Assembly (NCBI GenBank): GCA_964016885.1
Contig: OZ024743.1
Coordinates: forward strand, 106,578,001-106,642,000
Direction of reading: 5' to 3'
Length of the DNA: 64,000 bases
DNA from: Eledone cirrhosa
Taxonomy: Eukaryota
Shown: one piece after another, positions 6,371-48,092 of the stretch
Position numbering within the stretch: position 1 is the stretch's first letter
Layout: every line of letters begins with the position of its first letter
Notes under the pieces: model-generated
What the model was told of the DNA's origin: nothing
The model's database searches: none
What the model saw: the letters and a program-made list of their open reading frames with translations, nothing else
Position numbers and translations under genes: made by a program

Positions 6371-7202
6371 CGAAGATATGTAAGGTTAAAATTTGTTTGT
6401 GTGAATCAATGTGCAAACAAGGTAATCAAGGAAAATTGCTTACCAAAGTATTTATCTCGACAGGATTTTTGCAGGTGGTACGGTAACAGTCCAATTTGAG
6501 TGATCAATGTACTGTATCAAAGTGTTTTGAGTAGACAGAGGTAAAAAAATCCTCACTGCAAGATGCACCGACGTCGCCTCGAACTATGAACTCTTTCTGG
6601 TGAAGTGCAGTATCATAGATAATGCAAGCGATTGAATATGACAATAATATGCAATAAGCGCACATAGGGTGATGTTATACAGAAACATTTGTTAAAGAAC
6701 GGACTCTAACTAAATTTGTCTCCTATAACCTCTACTTCAGGCCTAATCATTTGCTTTTCCTAGTACTATAGCTTTAAATTTATATATACTGTATATATAT
6801 ATATATATATGAGTATGAATGAAGTAATTCCGTCGGAAAGGTACAGTAAAAAAAGAGTGCTCTATGTAGGTTACAGAGCTTATTAGTTACGTAATAAACA
6901 TCATAAGATAATTATTTCATTTACCAGTGGTTTCTTGAAAGCAAATAAATATGGTTTCAGTCATCGGAATGAAAAAAACATAGTGTTTTTATTAAATGTG
7001 GATTTGAAAACAAAAATATAAGAAATATATAAGAGAGGCTGAGGAAACAACGAGCGAAGAAGAAAAAAAGAATGATATATATATATAGATGTATACACAC
7101 ACACACACACATATGTACATATGTATACATATATGAGTTTCAGAAGATCCCGTTAAGGGTGAAAGCAGCGATTCTTTGCTTAATCTTTAATCTATTATTT
7201 TG

Positions 7203-15899: not shown

Positions 15900-18230
15900 A
15901 GTGGTTACACAGCAGTTAGTTGACCATACTGAGAAAAATTGTTTCCTTAGCGGATCCTCAGCTCGTAATGGACATGGTATACGGAACAGGAAGGACAACC
16001 GTACGAACGCACACGCGCAGAAATGGTCACTTCACTCAGGCAATACTAAATTGCGTGCGTGAGATGTAAGGGAGATAACTGCGAAATTCCGAAAGTTTCT
16101 AGTTGATGAGAACATTAGGATGTTGTTGTAATTCAATCCGGAGCTTTGTAGTTATGTAAGAGGTGTTTCCAGAAATGTGGACAACGTGTGAAGAACTCAA
16201 TCTTGTTTTTAGGCAATCGCTATTGCGTAATCTCTTCAGAATTTTTATTCGTTCATCAATACATAGTCCACCCGACGGATTGGACTTAGTGATGGCTTTC
16301 CATTGAATGGAGTAGTTTATACTTGAGTCCTTCAGGAACCATACGTGGCTCGCGAGTTTCATGGATGAACGTCTGTCCGGGTACCTAAAGGTCGGCTGGT
16401 GGTTAAGGAAGCGTTCCTTAAATCGGCTCTCTACCATGCTCACATCAGATTTGACCTACCGTGGTTGAATTGGTCGGTTGGAAGTGACCACAGCTTCATA
16501 AACTACAGCGGGTGAGTTGCATTTCTGTTGACGACAAGCTTCGGGGTTAGGGCAAGAGACCCTGGTGGGATGTTGCTCTTAGGGCTGTTGGTGATATGGG
16601 CCTTCATGTTCTTCGCGCAAGAGTATCCTAGTTTTACTTTGTGTCGGTTAAAGATGGAGCGGTATTTATGACATATGGGAAAATGTCTATCTAAGAGGGC
16701 TAGACATATTTTGCCTACATTGGTTTTAACGTTGAGTGATAAGGGAAGTGTTTGTCTATTGTTACGCTTCCTTTTCTTATTGCTGTTGTTGTTAGTGGGA
16801 GAGTAAGTGATAGGTTGCGAGAAGCCGCTGTTAGCTAACCTATTGTTATAGTAGGGTGCCGCTCTGTCAAAGATAGCCTTATTAGAGGAGAGGTTTGAGA
16901 TTCCTGTACTGATATTATTTACGAAGTTTCTAAAAACAGTGGGCGGGTGGCATGAGTCCTTGTGAATGTAATTGAGTTTTTCCTTAACCTTATTGAAGGG
17001 TCTGCAGGTGTGTGTGCGAAGGTCTAAATTAATGTCTAAGAAATCTACGCTAGAACAGTTGATAGCTACTATTATCCTAAGTCTTAACTCATTGAAGGTA
17101 GAAGCTAAGATTTTTTTTTAAACCGGTGGAGGTCGTGACCACTTTTATGGCTCGATAAGGTCAGTCCATCGTCGCTGTATATTCCCGTGCGGAAGTCCGG
17201 GAATCTAACACGTAATATGTCTAAGATAAATAGGCCAACCAAGTCAGCACTGTCAAACGATCCCAAGCGGACGCCGAACAGGTCTGAAGTTGTTGACTTC
17301 TTTGCCCAGGCTACTCTGTTGTTAAAGAGGGGGGTTTTCCGGCAGAGAGCGATGATTTCCCTGTCTCAACTATGGACGGTAGTGTAAGTGGTAGCGAAGT
17401 CCAACGCTTTGTTTAACAGGGTCTCTGAGATCGACGGGTAAAAATCAACAATGTCAAACTGTGTGAACTTCCCTTTTGGGGGATTTGAAGGAGTTGAACC
17501 AGTTAATTACGGAGTCGCTGTTCTCCCGCACGGACAGGTTGGACTTGGTCCTAATGGTCTTACCTATGTTTCTAACTATGGCTTTACTGACTCGACCCAT
17601 ATCTGTGCGTGCCAGGTTTAGTAGTCTACGGGTTGGGTTAGAAGTAAAGTCTACCTTGTGATCTTTCAGGGTGTGGAACGCCTCCCGCTTATTTACCTTA
17701 AGGGCGGCGGCAAGTTCTTTGGCTTCTGTATTAATGTCGTGGCAGGCCATAGGGTTAGCTTTCTTATATTTGGAAGTAATAGCGTTATGGGCCAAGTGGC
17801 TGAAAGTGGTGTTGTCGACTTAGTAAATATTATTAGTTTTGTCGGAAAGAACGAAAGTGTTATTAGATGGCCTAAATATTTTAATATCATTTCTAAGTTT
17901 AGTATGAAAGGTGTTAGGGTGCTTGTGAAAGGAAATGTTAGCGACTAAGTCAAGAAGGTCCGCCTCGAAAGGAGCAAGTTCAGTTACCTTAGGAGGGTAG
18001 GCTCTCGATTTCAGGTTGAAGGTGTTACTGGTGCCTGTAATTTTGCCGACAAAACCTACGACTCGCCATCTTAAGCGTCTGACGACATCATCCGCTTTTT
18101 GTAGTATAAGCTTTTGGTAAACGATGTTGGAAGGAGTGGGAATGTTCTTCAGGGAGTAATCCAGTTCGTATAAATCCATACTGACGTTGATGAGACGACA
18201 ATTGTGTAGGACACCAGGATATAGCGAGCG
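15900..18230 (-). mobile_element. Near full-length decayed Penelope-like element, Hydra-type (RT plus C-terminal GIY-YIG)
   Basis: DYSLKNIPTPS..YQKLILQKADDVVRRLRWR, VLSDKTNNIY, TLKDHKVDF..NPTRRLLN, FDIVDFYPSI, GIYSDDGL, CPNPEAC..KC..AVVYEA, FKERFLNH, LASHVWFLKD..YSIQWK. Bounded by TA-rich tracts. Clade assignment is from recalled motifs. Confidence 0.88.
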
Positions 18231-18246
18231 CTCATATGTATACATA

Positions 18247-18750
18247 TGCATAGACGGTTGTACCCCTTGCTTCTGTTGGACATCACCAGAGGGCGTTAGC
18301 ACCCCGGTGATGCATAACTACGGCTTCCTAAGACCGTATTTTGTTGGAAATACGAAATTATTATACATATTTTATAAAGCTATGCCTGAAGGGAAATCCT
18401 ATTTATTTTCTATTATAGCTGGAGCCAACTGATGCAGATTCATATGCAAATGAAATTAATCACCTCATTAACACAGACGAGGAAACTATATATTCTCGCC
18501 TCTCTTCTAGTCCAGCAGTCGCAGGCGGTGGAAGGCACCGTCCTGACGATGACCCGTTAAGCCTGAAATGCATAGACGGTTGCCCCCCCCCCCCCCTGAT
18601 TCTGGTGGACATCACCAGAAGACATTAGCCCCCGGTGTTTGCATAGCTACAGCTTCCTAAAACCGTATTTCTTTGAAAATACAAAATTATTATGCATATT
18701 GTTATATATATTGTATAAAGCTATGCTTGATGCGAAATCCCATTTCTTTT
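18247..18750 (+). repeat. Tandem pseudo-LTR-like direct repeat (18247-18410 and 18569-18745)
   Basis: tgcatagacggttg...ggacatcaccaga...ccccggtg...gcttcctaa...gaaatcc occurs twice. Confidence 0.85.
18534..18584 (+). ncRNA. Minimal type I hammerhead ribozyme
   Basis: Stem I accgtc/gacggt (extended by ggc/gcc). Core CTGACGA...GAAA, palindromic loop III TGCA, cleavage after UA at 18574. Stem II is imperfect. Confidence 0.75.
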
Positions 18751-25698: not shown

Positions 25699-26590
25699 GC
25701 ATATATATATTTATATGTATATGCATATATATATTTATATGCATATTTATATACACATTTATATGCATGCATATACAAATGTCAAAACATGTCAAACTGC
25801 AATTATTTGTTTATAGCTATATATACAATGTACACATTTATACTACAATGTAAGAATACATTTTATATACGAATCCATTTATACCAATCAATGTGTGCAT
25901 GTACTCTTCATATTTCGCAATATCACGTATGCACACACACACACACACGCACGCATACACACCCACAAACTAACTTGTATAGAACCGTGCATACGATATT
26001 GTAAATAAGTGATTAAACATGTCTGTCGTGCATACATATATACATACAAATATATGTATAAATATATATATATAATTAAGTTAAAAATGTACATCCACAT
26101 ATGTATACTGAAATACTAGTATGCATATGAATACACACACGTATACATATGTAGATGTACCGAGTTTTTCACTGGTCACTTCACTGTGAGTGTCCAGCTA
26201 TTCTGTATGCAAACACACAGACAAACCGGTTTTTAGAGTCATACTGGTTTTTGAGGAAACACCTTTCCTCTATTCTCCAGAAAGCCAGACAAGGAATATT
26301 GAACTAGTTTCGATGTTGTTACATCTCATCAGCAATATTTACCTATCTTCCGGCCTCTCTAGAGAAACGTAAAAGCACATATCGTTATATGCTTTTTCTA
26401 TGAAAATTAATTGTTTAAGCGTCAGTCATACAAAAGTGAGTTACAAACGAAACGAAATTTAATTTCGTTTCGTTATTTGTTTTTATATATATATATATAC
26501 ATAGTAATAATAATAAATTTGAAGACTAAAATCCAAAGAGGGCTCGATAAGGATAAATATATATCAAACATATGAGAACCGTAGAGCAAA

Positions 26591-27187
26591 TATTTATTAA
26601 GATAACAGATTAAAGTTTAAGCAAAGAATCGCTGCGTTCACTCTTCTGAAACTAAAAAAGTCAAACTGTGAACGCAGTAGTAAATATTTCAAAAAACGTT
26701 GCAACCGGAGGAAGACGGGAAGACGATACTTTGGTTCGTGGAAACGTTCCCTGGCAAAGAACCGAAAACAAACGAAGATAATTCGTCATTATGTGGAACG
26801 GTGAAAACAATTACACGCAAAGACAAAACCACGTTTATGGTATAAATGAAGTCGTAGACTAATATTCTATTAGGTGGTTCAAGGAGATGTTCTCTGGCAA
26901 TGAACGGAAAAACGAAGATAATACGTCATTATACGGAACCCTGAGAACAATTGCACGTAAAGACAATACCACGTAAATAATGACGTATTATCTTCATTTG
27001 TATTCGGTTCTTTGCCAGGGAACGTTTCCACGAACAAAAGTATCGTCTTCCTGTCTTCCTCCGGTTGCAACGTTTTTTGAAATATTTAATTCTGCGTTTA
27101 CAGATTGACTTTTTTAGTTTCAGAAGATCCCGTTAAGGGTGAAAGCAGCGAATCTTTGGTTAAACTTTAATCTGTTATTTCAATATA

Positions 27188-27190
<3 letters not shown>
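26591..27190. repeat. Inverted repeat (~200-bp arms) enclosing a partial direct duplication
   Basis: 26591-26792 is the reverse complement of 26977-27190. 26750-26835 is repeated at 26895-26975. 27118-27180 recurs at 7137-7200. Confidence 0.9.
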
Positions 27191-29895: not shown

Positions 29896-29930
<35 letters not shown>

Positions 29931-29932
<2 letters not shown>

Positions 29933-30411
29933 TCGTTTAATTGTAAGAGACTACTTTGAGTTTCTAATTCAGTATATATGTGTCGGCTCCATCATGTAGT
30001 GCTAATGTTAATGTCGTGTTAACAAGGCTGCTATTTTTAGCAGCATATGTTTTGGAGACAAACTAGGCTCCGACGACACGTGCGTTATTTCATATCGCAC
30101 TCAATTCAGTCTTCTAATATTTTTAGAAGTGGGAGGATCGCTAATTTCTCAACACCTACTGATGAGGAGAGAAATAGTGATGACTTCGCTTAATATGATT
30201 TTGCGGAACAGTTTCCATAACTGTCTAGGTGTTTTCAGGCAGTTGCCCAATATAGGCTTGTTATTATTTTTCTTAATTTACTACTTCAAATTAAGACTGG
30301 CAAACTATATTGCTGTAGTTAGTACACCCCCCCCCCCCCCCCTAGCAAACTTAGTCCTTACGATTCGGATACATGTATGTTTATATTAGTGTTCAACTCT
30401 CTTGTTTATTC

Positions 30412-30415
<4 letters not shown>
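29931..30415 (+). mobile_element. HHR-bearing non-coding repeat family B, copy 1, between (TA)n tracts
   Basis: Homologous to ~47630-48056 (ggctgctatttttag, ttagaagtg, ggcaaac..tattg, ccttacgatt, ttcaattata). Confidence 0.8.
30151..30233 (+). ncRNA. Type I hammerhead ribozyme (A13->G variant)
   Basis: Stem I aacaccta/taggtgtt (8 bp), CTGATGA, long stem II, GGAA, stem III ACAGTT/AACTGT, GUC at 30223-30225. Confidence 0.8.
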
Positions 30416-30483
<68 letters not shown>

Positions 30484-39924: not shown

Positions 39925-42900
39925 ATGACAAATTTGAACAGGGACAGAACAGAGAGGCAGTACAATAAATGTTTATTAAATACACGCTCAGGAGAGTGGG
40001 GGGTAGGTGGGGGACGACGTTTCGGGCATAAGCTCTTCCTCAGGTGAGAAGTGTCTGGGGACAGAGTTCAAAAGGTGTGTAGGGGAGTGGTGGAGAGACA
40101 TATAGCGAAAGGAAACGGTGCGAATGAAAAATTAACAAATGAAGACAAAAAATATAAAAAATAAAAATAAAGCATGATCAAAATACAAGGAATGAGAAAA
40201 TTTAAAAATAAAGGCATGATCAAAATAAACTGAAATTAAAAGGGTGGTAAACAGGTGGTGGAAGGGTGTGGGGTGAGTAGGGGTGGTGGCGGGTGGAGTG
40301 GGGAGAGGGAGACGGGGTGTCCGATCGGGGAGGGCTGAAGGTGGTGTGTGTGTGTAGGTGTGCGTGTGTGTGTGTGTGTGTGTATGTGAAAGTGAGGGTT
40401 GGGGGAAGAACGGGGTTGCATGTTCAAGAAGAGGTGTATGCGGGGGGTGTTTTTGTGGGTCGGAGTGTCTGTGCGTGTGTGGATAGGGGGGTGGGGGGGA
40501 GAGGAATCAGGAGGCTGAGGGTGTAAATATGTGGTGGGAAGCACGTGTGTGTGGGGTTTAAGCGTGTTGTGAGTGTGGGTGGCGTGTGGAGAAAAAAATG
40601 TTTTTGGGGTGTGTGTGTGTGGGTGAGTTATATAGGTGATGGCGTAAGAGGATGGTTGAAAAGTTGGTAAGTTCCACGGATGTTTGGAGATTTGGTTATA
40701 AGTCAATTTCGCGTGTGGGTAATCCAAGAAGCGGTGGTCGGAAGAGGAGAGATGTGGGGTGCGCGCGCAACAGGAAGTGGTCAGCAGTGGGAGTGCTGTG
40801 GTCAGTTGGTGCTGGGAGGTCATAGCAGCAGTCGGTGGAATGGTAGGGAGGCGAGGATGGGTAGGTGTGAGAGTTGGAGTGAGGAGGGTGTGTGTGTGTG
40901 TATTAGTAGGGGTGTTAGTGGGATGAGTGAGTGTGGACGGGGGGTGTGGGTGGAGCGGGGAGATAAGGGTGTGTGTGGTTCTATGGAGGGAGTGTGGTGT
41001 ACTGGTGTGTGTGTAGTTTGGTGAAGAGGTGTTAGTGGGTGTTAGTATACGGGAGGTGGGGAGGGGTGGAATGCAGGTGTGAGTGTGGGTTAGTGGTGGT
41101 AGGGTGTGTAGAGTTGGTGGTGTACGAGGGTGTGTGGGTACGGGTGCGTGGGGTTGGGGGGTTTTAGTGATGTTAGTTGCGTGCGGGGTGGGTGGTGTAA
41201 GTGGGTGCGTGTGTGCGTGTGATAAGGAGGGGGAGGAGGAGAAGAGGGGAGGGAAGGGATGTTAGTATGTTAGTTGGGGAAGGGTGGTCAGATGAGGGGT
41301 GGGGTGGAGGTGTTAGTATTGTTAGTGTGGGGTTGGCGGTGAAAAGGAGGGGTGTGTTAGTGGTGTTAGTGGGTGATAAGTGTGGGGGGAGAGGGCGGTC
41401 GAACGCTAAAGGAATAAGGGTGGGGAGTTCAGGCCGGGGGGAGTGTGGGTCTGTAAGATGAAGATAGTGCGTTGTTCGACCGTAAGGCGATGGGCGGGTG
41501 TTCCGTGGCACTGGAGTAGGCCACAGACTGTGAGATGGCGTGCGGAGTGTCCAGGGCCACCAAAGTGGCGGGCGATGGGGGAAGTACCCCCGAAACGAAT
41601 ATCCCGGAGGTGCTCCGTGACTCGGTCCGCCAGGCGACGTCCCGTCTGTCCGTTTTTCGATGTTTTCGTGCCAAAGGATGAAGCAGTCATCTAGATATCG
41701 CTTCCAGTTCCTTTCAATGTGTAAGTGGAGGGTGTTTGCAAATTTGTTTAGGACTTTAGTGTAGAGGGTGATTTCCAGGTATCCCATGACTAGGTTGGCA
41801 TAAGTGGGGCTGTTTTCGTACCCATAGCGGTCCCAGATTTCTGCCTGTAGGGTTTGTTATTGAAAACGAAGTAATTGTTCTCCAAGATAAATTTGAGTCC
41901 CTCTATCACGAATTCTTTTTTGATGCGTTGTGGGAGTTCATTGTGGAAATTATCCAGCCAGAATTGGATAGCTTCTATTCCTAGGTTGTGGGGGATGTTG
42001 GAGTATAGGTTGACTACATCGAACGTCACTAGTAGGGTTTGTTCAGAAAGTGGCATATTAGGGAGGTGATTGAGCATATCTAGGTCGTACCTTATATAGC
42101 TTTTGATGTGCTTGAGGAAGGGTTTGAGAAGGGTATCAAGGAAGTTGCTAAGACGGTGCGTTTCGCAAGCGGGGCCTGCTATTATAGGTCTTAATTTGAG
42201 ATCATTGGGTGAGGGGACATTGATGACTATGTCTGTGGCTTCCTTGCATGCCTTACTTATTGATTCGCTTTTATGTAGTTTAGGGATACCGTAGAAAAGG
42301 CTGGATTTACTTGTGAAGTCTGTGAAGAAGCTGAATTCCTTGTTAGTGAGTCCTTCTTTGTATTGGTTGATTAGAGTTTTTAGGTTTCTCATAATTTTCT
42401 GTTGATTGTAGTGTTCAGCCTTTTCGTAGTATGTTTCGTTTTCCAAAGTGGAGAGCGCTAAGTTGATATAGAATTCTGTCTCCATTAGGACTACTGTAGT
42501 CCCTTTATCAGCCTCTTTAATTGTAATGGTTCTGTCGGTTTTTAATCTATTTAATTCTTCCCATTCTTTCTTGTTGAGGTTTGGCTTCTGTTTTTGTCTG
42601 TGCAAGTGTTGGTAAGGGAAGTTTGTGATGTGTTCACAGAATTCGTCCAGGATTTTATTTCTACCTTTTGAAGGGGTGTAATTGCTTCTATTTCTGGCTA
42701 ATGATTCATCCTCATTGTACTGGTCGAATAGTTGTTCACTAAGTCGTAACTTTCTACAGAAGTCTGTGATGTCTTCCTTCATTTCATAGTAGTTAGGTCG
42801 TAGTAGGGTCGGTGTGAATTTAAGACCTTTGGAGAGTAAGTTGATAAGGTTGGGTGTTGGTTCTGCACTAGTAAGATTGATAATTTTTATTACTATCGGT

Positions 42901-43070
42901 TTCTCCTGCCTGTCTTGTGTTATTTTGTTTGCCTGTATCTGTGTGCTGTGTCTAAAAAATGGTTGGGGTAGAGGGGTTGTCTGCTGATGTTAAGTGGTCT
43001 CCTGTGTTTGTTATATTCCTTGTTGTTGTAAAATGTGGTTCGGGTTGGTGGTTGTAGATTGAATGTGGTA
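39925..43070 (-). mobile_element. Neptune-type Penelope-like element, internally deleted or chimeric, with 3' low-complexity UTR and HHR
   Basis: LLSKGLKFTPT, IKEADKG, FYGIPKLHK, LRPIIAG, FDVVNLYSNIPH, GTAMGTK and RYLDDCF are joined directly to the endonuclease segment GQTGRRLADRVTEH..IARHF..GH..EQRTIFILQT..PGLN. HHR core CTGAGGA-AGAGC-TTAT-GCCC-GAAACGTCGTC at 40013-40043. Confidence 0.92.
41790..42782 (-). CDS. PLE reverse transcriptase fragment (330-aa ORF, frameshifted at its C-terminus)
   Basis: ORF-track protein with the PLE RT motifs listed above. Confidence 0.85.
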   Translation of the reverse strand: MKEDITDFCRKLRLSEQLFDQYNEDESLARNRSNYTPSKGRNKILDEFCEHITNFPYQHLHRQKQKPNLNKKEWEELNRLKTDRTITIKEADKGTTVVLMETEFYINLALSTLENETYYEKAEHYNQQKIMRNLKTLINQYKEGLTNKEFSFFTDFTSKSSLFYGIPKLHKSESISKACKEATDIVINVPSPNDLKLRPIIAGPACETHRLSNFLDTLLKPFLKHIKSYIRYDLDMLNHLPNMPLSEQTLLVTFDVVNLYSNIPHNLGIEAIQFWLDNFHNELPQRIKKEFVIEGLKFILENNYFVFNNKPYRQKSGTAMGTKTAPLMPT

Positions 43071-47413: not shown

Positions 47414-47445
<32 letters not shown>

Positions 47446-47447
<2 letters not shown>

Positions 47448-48052
47448 AAGATATATATTGCGTTAGAAACTCAAAATAGTCTCTTACAATAAAATAGCTC
47501 TAGGAAAGAGATTTTTCCGAGCCGTATATTGTAATTGATATATAAAAGAAAGACGAACGCAGATATATAGATATGTGTGTTGAAATCGTAAGGGACAAGA
47601 TTCGCTAACTCAATATATACCTTTGATATATTCGGCTCCGTTAATTTGTTGAGCTAATTCAAATGTCGAATAAACCTGGCTGCTATTTTTAGTGGAGTAA
47701 GTTTGTGAGACGCGCTAAGTTCGGATACCATGTGAGTTGTTATATATACGTACACTATTCAGTTTCTTAATATACTTAGAAGTGTCTAGGATAATAATTA
47801 TTCACACACTGATGAGCAAGAATTGGCATTGCTATTCACAATTAATTTTGCGAAACAGCAGTACCAAAAGCTGTCTGGGTGATTGGTAGTTACTACAATT
47901 CCGGTTTGTATTTATTTTCTTGATTTATTCTTAAATTGAGTCAGGCAAACACTATTGTCTATAGTTAGTATTCGTTTTACCGTAGCAAATCTGCTTCCTT
48001 ACGATTTGAACACATATATGTATATATCTGTGTTCTTCTTTCTTTTATATTC

Positions 48053-48056
<4 letters not shown>
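47446..48056 (+). mobile_element. HHR-bearing repeat family B, copy 2, between (TA)n tracts
   Basis: Homologous to 29931-30415. Confidence 0.8.
47802..47882 (+). ncRNA. Type I hammerhead ribozyme, intact core
   Basis: Stem I tcacaca/tgggtga (6 of 7 pairs), CTGATGA (47809-47815), stem II GCAAGAATT/AATTTTGC, GAAA (47852-47855), stem III ACAGC/GCTGT, GUC with cleavage after C47875. Confidence 0.9.

Positions 48057-48092
<36 letters not shown>

What the first reader, a model, noticed from the sequence alone, without database searches (positions are those of the whole stretch)
47802..47882. Apparently intact full-size hammerhead with a covarying paralogue at 30151-30233
Seen: a perfect core and three stems. 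The paralogue differs in sequence but keeps the pairing (stem I tcacaca/tgggtga vs aacaccta/taggtgtt; stem III ACAGC/GCTGT vs ACAGTT/AACTGT). Unlike minimal PLE HHRs it has a real stem III, so it could cleave as a monomer (inference). Both copies lie in ~0.5-0.6 kb ORF-less units flanked on both sides by (TA)n. If the region is intronic on the + strand it could cut host pre-mRNA.
Basis: partly seen in the sequence, partly recalled or inferred. Interest (0 to 1): 0.75.

Follow-up and report, generated by a model that had tools for sequence, protein, structure and literature searches.

The report
Hammerhead retrozyme riding Hydra Penelope elements
This is one slightly damaged copy of a 517-base protein-free jumping repeat that carries a hammerhead-ribozyme motif in over 600 copies; its insertions stop just before a small predicted RNA hairpin also found in Hydra-type Penelope retrotransposons, which likely lend it their copying enzyme.

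Summary
The hammerhead motif at 47802-47882 is real: intact core, three stems, GUC site at C47875, and compensatory changes at 5 of 14 pairs across subfamilies. It is not a lone intronic ribozyme. It lies in a 517-bp ORF-less, circularly permuted repeat (631 exact core matches genome-wide, 0 controls) that inserts into (TA)n, mostly as head-to-head inverted arms like Penelope-like elements (PLEs). This copy has three private stem I substitutions and is predicted to misfold; the 30151 paralogue carries A13G and is likely dead. Insertion ends fall at two fixed sites (64 of 78), neither at the cleavage site. Each lies just before a GCTC-stem-loop-2-nt-bulge-GAGC hairpin. The same hairpin follows both ends of a co-aged autonomous Hydra-clade PLE here and, by eye, 4 of 6 published Hydra consensus sequences. 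Best model: a non-autonomous retrozyme; rare two-hammerhead copies release a monomer that circularises and is reverse-transcribed by Hydra RT/endonuclease from hairpin-marked sites. Cleavage, expression and circles are untested; no host gene was found nearby. The scan noted the same reading on other DNA of this genome.

The parts
47417..47445 (.). (TA)n target array, left half
47440..47608 (-). inverted arm of the insertion (monomer positions M377-544); its sense 3' end at site B runs into the left (TA)n
47497..47522 (-). site A hairpin GCTC-stem-loop-2-nt bulge-GAGC (follows the first fixed 3' end in the monomer)
   Evidence: fold predicted
47605..48065 (+). direct arm (M1-459), about 4% from subfamily majority; sense 3' end at site A runs into the right (TA)n; joined to the inverted arm over a 4-nt microhomology
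47635..47654 (+). site B hairpin, same motif, follows the second fixed 3' end in the monomer
   Evidence: fold predicted
47802..47882 (+). type I hammerhead: stem I 47802-47808/47876-47882 (A47806.G mismatch), core 47809-47815 and 47852-47855, long bulged stem II from 47816 to 47851, stem III 47855-47859/47870-47874, predicted cut after C47875
48056..48091 (.). (TA)n target array, right half
29935..30424 (+). paralogue of another subfamily (about 70% identical to the first copy), single arm ending at site A, (TA)n at 29896-29930 and 30415-30482
30151..30233 (+). paralogue hammerhead with A13G (30206) and a broken stem II pair (30167): likely inactive

Best explanation
The hammerhead belongs to a decayed copy of a 517-base non-coding retroelement (a retrozyme) that is likely copied by the reverse transcriptase/endonuclease of Hydra-clade Penelope-like elements, probably from a circular RNA that the ribozyme would cut out. 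Steps: (1, shown) most copies, this one included, hold a single hammerhead and are dead ends; about 5 of 78 span two cleavage sites. (2, inferred) read-through transcripts of such copies self-cleave twice and release one 517-nt monomer, which is ligated to a circle as shown for other animal retrozymes. (3, inferred) the Hydra protein nicks (TA)n, binds a GCTC/GAGC bulged hairpin and starts cDNA at the AT-rich stretch just 5' of it, at either of two sites 85 nt apart. (4, footprint shown, mechanism inferred) both target strands prime, and the two cDNAs join head to head, giving inverted arms whose outer ends are both sense 3' ends. (5, inferred) cDNAs that run more than once round the circle make new two-hammerhead copies.
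For: Family: 631 core matches, 0 control; circularly permuted monomer. Selection on the ribozyme in master lineages: 5 of 14 pairs change on both sides, 97% of cells paired, 0 of 500 shuffles reach the covariation score, slid controls at most 43% paired (24 hand-picked sequences); in 22 copies chosen on the site B hairpin, core positions differ 13 of 242 against 1063 of 8351 elsewhere. PLE footprint: antisense arm in 51 of 78, (TA)n right in 57 and left in 44 of 78; sense 3' ends at two sites in 64 of 78, inverted-arm ends in 31 of 41, matching the inverted copy and optional tail of Craig 2021 and the two internal RT starts of Frangieh 2024. Partner: an abundant family with open frames of about 710 codons and Hydra marks (RLRWR, DKT, CxCX5C, C-terminal GIY-YIG) has two 3' ends about 87 nt apart in (TA)n, each followed by the hairpin (seen in the 5 of 13 loci that retain the upstream repeat, L219 in part); one pattern fetches both it and the retrozyme, 356 matches, 0 control; a second Hydra family has the hairpin before its ATG; ages overlap (median 4.7% vs 3.2-3.7%). 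By eye the hairpin, with different inner stems, is in Hydra-2_Amil, Hydra-2_Ajap, Hydra-1_Ajap (twice) and as a GCCC/GGGC variant in Hydra-1_Crog. Circle: every copy ends before its hairpin, so linear templates would shorten each generation unless long arrays exist; none was found (longest 2.4 monomers among 30 best loci); inserts read across the cleavage site and 0 of 119 5' ends fall on it; circular monomer folds with z = -4.2.
Against: No cleavage, expression or circle was observed. Frangieh 2024 found uncleaved RNA to be the main substrate of a Poseidon PLE in vitro and priming without homology to the target. The monomer has no overall sequence likeness to the Hydra family's ends (score 95, shuffles up to 104), so the exact partner is not identified. 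Tandem halves are not more alike than the best other copy (8 of 35; inverted 1 of 17). The genome-wide test of hairpin versus (TA)n ends was noisy: 18 of 53 clusters against 8 of 51 controls, many clusters being junction variants. The hairpin is unclear in Hydra-1_Obim and absent from the incomplete Hydra-1_Amil. The search for arrays saw only the best 40 of 3519 candidates, and the two-core pattern (2 matches) misses short-loop subfamilies. Li 2026 saw cleavage in only 1 of 9 frog dimers.
Confidence: 0.65

Rival explanations
1. Same Hydra-driven mobility, but from linear, uncleaved read-through RNA of tandem masters; the hammerhead only trims transcripts or is a passenger inherited from a PLE pseudo-LTR.
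For: Uncleaved RNA is the dominant substrate for the anole Poseidon element; intact junctions in all inserts fit this too; 5' ends show a mild excess at M279-310, just 3' of the ribozyme.
Against: Needs long arrays to avoid shortening each generation; none found. Core and stems are kept across subfamilies up to 24% apart.
Confidence: 0.22
2. The copies are merely 5'-truncated ends of an autonomous PLE whose ORF-bearing copies were not sampled.
For: Only about 160 loci were inspected; truncated ends of autonomous Hydra elements have the same footprint.
Against: The monomer closes on itself: site B hairpin runs directly into the 170 nt before the hammerhead in all subfamilies; no PLE frame adjoins the element in sense in 164 oriented loci; 0 of the 28 retrozyme loci chosen on the site B hairpin continue into a Hydra ORF (read by eye).
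Confidence: 0.08
3. This copy acts as an intronic ribozyme that cuts or regulates a host pre-mRNA.
For: Core intact; both window copies lie on the + strand; conserved intronic hammerheads exist in amniotes (recalled, not read).
Against: Ordinary neutral decay (4% from majority, three stem I hits, predicted misfold); paralogue core broken; no host exon seen in 264 kb.
Confidence: 0.05

Closest known systems
Metazoan non-LTR retrozymes (Cervera and de la Pena 2020, PMC7229834, parts 2-3 of 6 and passages read; Li et al., bioRxiv 10.64898/2026.07.22.740005, parts 1-3 of 5 read, supplements not seen)
   Same: Non-coding, AT-rich repeat unit with one canonical type I hammerhead; monomers and dimers; self-paired predicted circle; PLEs proposed as mobilisers.
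   Different: 517 nt (Cervera 150-450; Li 51-972); dispersed rather than in long tandems; (TA)n-targeted, head-to-head inverted arms with two fixed ends; a named cis signal shared with one PLE clade. The words inverted and microsatellite do not occur in Cervera's main text.
Hydra-clade Penelope-like elements (Craig et al. 2021, PMC8557442, section 11, passages, supplement parts 1, 2, 52, 53 of 59 read)
   Same: (TA)n insertion, canonical hammerhead upstream of the 3' end, inverted 5'-truncated copy, optional tail, and the bulged hairpin beside the ends.
   Different: No RT/EN frame; tail 85 nt rather than 30-40; hammerhead with long stem II and 5-pair stem III; no overall sequence likeness to the sampled Hydra families. 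Hairpin and stem-loop do not occur in that paper's main text.
Poseidon element of Anolis (Frangieh et al. 2024, PMC11167929, parts 1-2 of 4 read, supplementary figures not seen)
   Same: Two internal RT start sites that explain the tail; both target strands cut and extended; AT-rich target.
   Different: There RT starts inside an AC-rich stem-loop without target homology and the hammerhead needs the protein; here ends lie in AT-rich stretches just 5' of a duplicated hairpin and resemble the (TA)n target.

Membership tests
Type I hammerhead ribozyme | CUGANGA and GAAA core with NUH site | tested here: met
   47809-47815, 47852-47855, GUC 47873-47875; not met for the 30151 paralogue (A13G)
Type I hammerhead ribozyme | Three helices with open stem I, supported by covariation | tested here: met
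   5 of 14 pairs change on both sides; 24 picked sequences; 66 of 86; this copy has one stem I mismatch
Type I hammerhead ribozyme | Loop 1-loop 2 tertiary contact | not tested
   A pyrimidine bulge in stem I and a bulged stem II are seen but no contact was modelled
Type I hammerhead ribozyme | Self-cleavage | not testable with these tools
   Only folding energies
Rfam hammerhead families (HH9, HH10, Hammerhead_1) | Covariance-model match | tested here: not met
   0 matches at E up to 5 in 47600-48040; the long stem II may explain it
Non-LTR retrozyme | Non-coding repeat unit with one type I hammerhead | tested here: met
Non-LTR retrozyme | Head-to-tail tandem copies with two or more hammerheads | tested here: inconclusive
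   Not this copy; 5 of 78 sampled span two cleavage sites; longest run 2.4 units; no long array found in a limited search
Non-LTR retrozyme | Expressed as circular RNA | not testable with these tools
   no RNA holder listed; predicted circle fold z = -4.2
Hydra-clade PLE (autonomous) | ORF with RT and C-terminal GIY-YIG | tested here: not met
   No ORF in the monomer; so not filed as an autonomous member
Hydra-clade PLE (as mobiliser) | (TA)n insertion, inverted 5'-truncated copy, optional tail | tested here: met
Hydra-clade PLE (as parent) | Sequence homology to the pseudo-LTR of an autonomous family | tested here: not met
   only the hairpin motif and layout are shared with the families sampled

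The most novel reading that the evidence does not exclude
The GCTC/GAGC bulged hairpin is the clade-wide RNA recognition element of Hydra reverse transcriptases, a template-recognition signal 3' of an internal priming site in a telomerase-related enzyme, and these retrozymes are minimal circular replicons (hammerhead plus two origins) that the enzyme copies by rolling circle from both target strands.
Probability: 0.4. Interest if true: 0.72.

Novelty: new variant of a known kind. Interest (0 to 1): 0.5.

Why it matters
Which enzyme moves animal retrozymes, and what hammerheads do in Penelope-like elements, are open questions. A short shared hairpin at fixed insertion ends names a candidate enzyme clade and a 20-30-nt signal that can be mutated in an existing in vitro assay. 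The single locus itself is an ordinary decaying insertion.

Tried and rejected
RNA evidence: no RNA holder listed; the two runs laid (2 of 3 listed) are contigs of unrecorded type from one sample and served only to confirm private substitutions. Exact autonomous parent: flanks of 164 loci, 30 loci of one Hydra family, 30 hairpin-chosen loci; none found. Pfam gave no family for 10 PLE-like frames, so the Hydra call rests on motifs from Craig 2021 read by eye. An idea that M40-70 encodes a remnant of the endonuclease C-terminus was dropped: no tblastn support, and the stretch is the hairpin. Within-insert identity as a test of rolling-circle copying was uninformative. The local aligner overextends some 5' ends (e.g. 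L101, L162), so counts of two-site copies come from BLAST. Two of 80 fetched loci (L091, L092) belong to another family and were left out of the counts of 78. Host gene search negative but incomplete (103 of 192 frames, 55 aa or longer). Literature searches for the hairpin or this family; nothing found in the listings; Repbase/Dfam entries and subscription journals were not searchable.

Full report
Observation. The window lies in a 3.0-Gb, microsatellite-rich animal genome. At 47802-47882 the + strand holds a type I hammerhead: stem I, core CTGATGA, a long bulged stem II, GAAA, a five-pair stem III with a 10-nt loop, and GUC ending at C47875. Two corrections: this copy has C-to-A changes at 47794, 47800 and 47806, all on the 5' side of stem I and private to it, and its hammerhead fold is predicted 8.5 kcal/mol above a competing fold, whereas some relatives fold to the hammerhead as their minimum. 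The paralogue has A13G and a broken stem II pair; the majority of its subfamily is intact. Rfam does not recognise the motif.

The family. DNA searches gave 3172 and 1408 first-look candidates for the two copies; a core pattern gave 631 exact matches and 0 controls. I fetched 80 loci from the first 100 listed matches; 78 belong to the family. In 66 of 86 pattern matches the unfixed parts of the fold are present. On 24 picked sequences from all subfamilies plus the L091/L092 family, 5 of 14 pairs change on both sides, 97% of cells pair, and slid controls pair at most 43% (relatedness inflates the shuffle test, and 55 of 500 shuffles reach the count of five pairs). In 22 copies chosen without regard to the ribozyme, core positions differ from the pooled majority at 13 of 242, other positions at 1063 of 8351; 13 of 22 have an intact core. 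Six subfamily majorities differ by 8-24%. So the ribozyme is kept in the master lineages and decays in inserted copies.

Anatomy. The unit is a 517-bp monomer without an ORF, circularly permuted between copies. The window copy is an inverted arm (47440-47608, M377-544) joined head to head to a direct arm (47605-48065, M1-459); both outer ends are sense 3' ends running into (TA)n. In the 78 loci an antisense arm is present in 51, (TA)n on the right in 57 and on the left in 44. Sense 3' ends fall at M450-466 (39) or M20-32 of the next unit (25), 64 of 78; inverted arms end at the same sites in 31 of 41. The cleavage site (M271) is neither a 3' end nor, in 0 of 119 cases, a 5' end (with some 5' ends overextended). 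Five of 78 sense arms span two cleavage sites. This is the PLE footprint of Craig 2021 (inverted 5'-truncated copy, optional tail), and two ends are what two internal RT starts produce (Frangieh 2024).

The shared signal. Both ends lie directly before a predicted hairpin, GCTC-stem-loop-2-nt bulge-GAGC, kept in the subfamily majorities that cover them. An abundant autonomous family with frames of about 710 codons carries the Hydra marks listed by Craig 2021. It also ends at two sites about 87 nt apart in (TA)n, and in full-length copies each site is followed by this hairpin, the second about 25 nt before the ATG. One pattern fetches both families, 356 matches, 0 controls. A second Hydra family has it before its ATG. 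In the published Hydra consensus file I read it by eye in 4 of 6 sequences, with different inner stems, from coral, sea cucumber and copepod; it is unclear in Hydra-1_Obim and absent from the incomplete Hydra-1_Amil. Ages overlap. Against: no overall likeness between the monomer and the Hydra ends, and a wider test was noisy (18 of 53 against 8 of 51). The motif occurs 383 times in 1.3 Mb of loci against 34-100 for five scrambled stems, but those loci were chosen for the family.

Mechanism. Because an insertion stops before its hairpin, a daughter made from linear RNA is always shorter than its parent; arms longer than a monomer need long arrays or a circle. No array was seen: longest 2.4 units among the 30 best loci for a dimer query, two matches for a two-core pattern that covers only some subfamilies. 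Double cleavage and ligation, shown for coral, mussel and axolotl retrozymes, would restore both hairpins and give an endless template; the circular monomer folds with z = -4.2 on 40 shuffles. I put this at 0.65; linear uncleaved templates at 0.22 (Frangieh 2024 favours them for Poseidon). Identity between halves of one insert did not discriminate. No RNA run was listed.

Host effect. No host exon was detected in the window plus 200 kb (103 of 192 frames scanned), and only the two window copies lie in that span. Intron status is unknown; nothing suggests domestication.

Comparison and novelty. It works like a non-LTR retrozyme (Cervera 2020; Li 2026 already argues PLE origin from Xenopus sequence likeness) and is not an autonomous Hydra element. 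New, as far as eight literature searches show: the dispersed inverted form with two fixed ends and the hairpin shared with the Hydra clade. Supplements of Li 2026 and Frangieh 2024 were not seen and may bear on this. I had noted this reading before finding that other agents of this scan reached it on other DNA of the same genome; those notes are not independent support. The HH9/HH10 intronic ribozymes, RtcB chemistry beyond and the telomerase comparison are recalled. Verdict: real motif, weakened copy, new variant of a known kind; interest 0.5.

Noticed in passing
window 26279-26350 (-), 40043 (-), 44819 (+), 28252 (+), 19854 (+), 10420 (-), 15961 (-), 18543 (+): Further hammerhead-like cores, mostly of the minimal PLE type; the first scores 36.5 bits on Rfam HH9, below its cut-off.
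   Followed up: no
L172, L202 and relatives; window about 26560-26800 (-) and 26980-27190: The abundant Hydra family (72311 first-look candidates) has no CTGANGA after its ORF; by eye a hammerhead-like fold with CAGAAGA (U4A) and a U.U base of stem II lies about 60 nt before its first 3' end.
   Followed up: no
L091, L092: A separate (TA)n family with a canonical hammerhead (GUA site); its 3' end also lies just before a GCTC/GAGC hairpin.
   Followed up: partly
window 6859-6879 and 490-525: Other repeats with the same hairpin motif; several such families end in (TA)n just before it.
   Followed up: partly
window 15900-18320 (-) and 41173-42989 (-): Decayed PLE ORFs: the first with Hydra motifs (DKT, RLRWR), the second with the DKG motif.
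   Followed up: partly
monomer M59-61 (window 47663-47665): An ATG 8 nt after the site B hairpin is kept in all six subfamily majorities, where Hydra elements have their start codon; it opens at most nine codons.
   Followed up: no
L148: Perfect genomic palindrome centred inside the element: later inverted duplication or assembly artefact.
   Followed up: no
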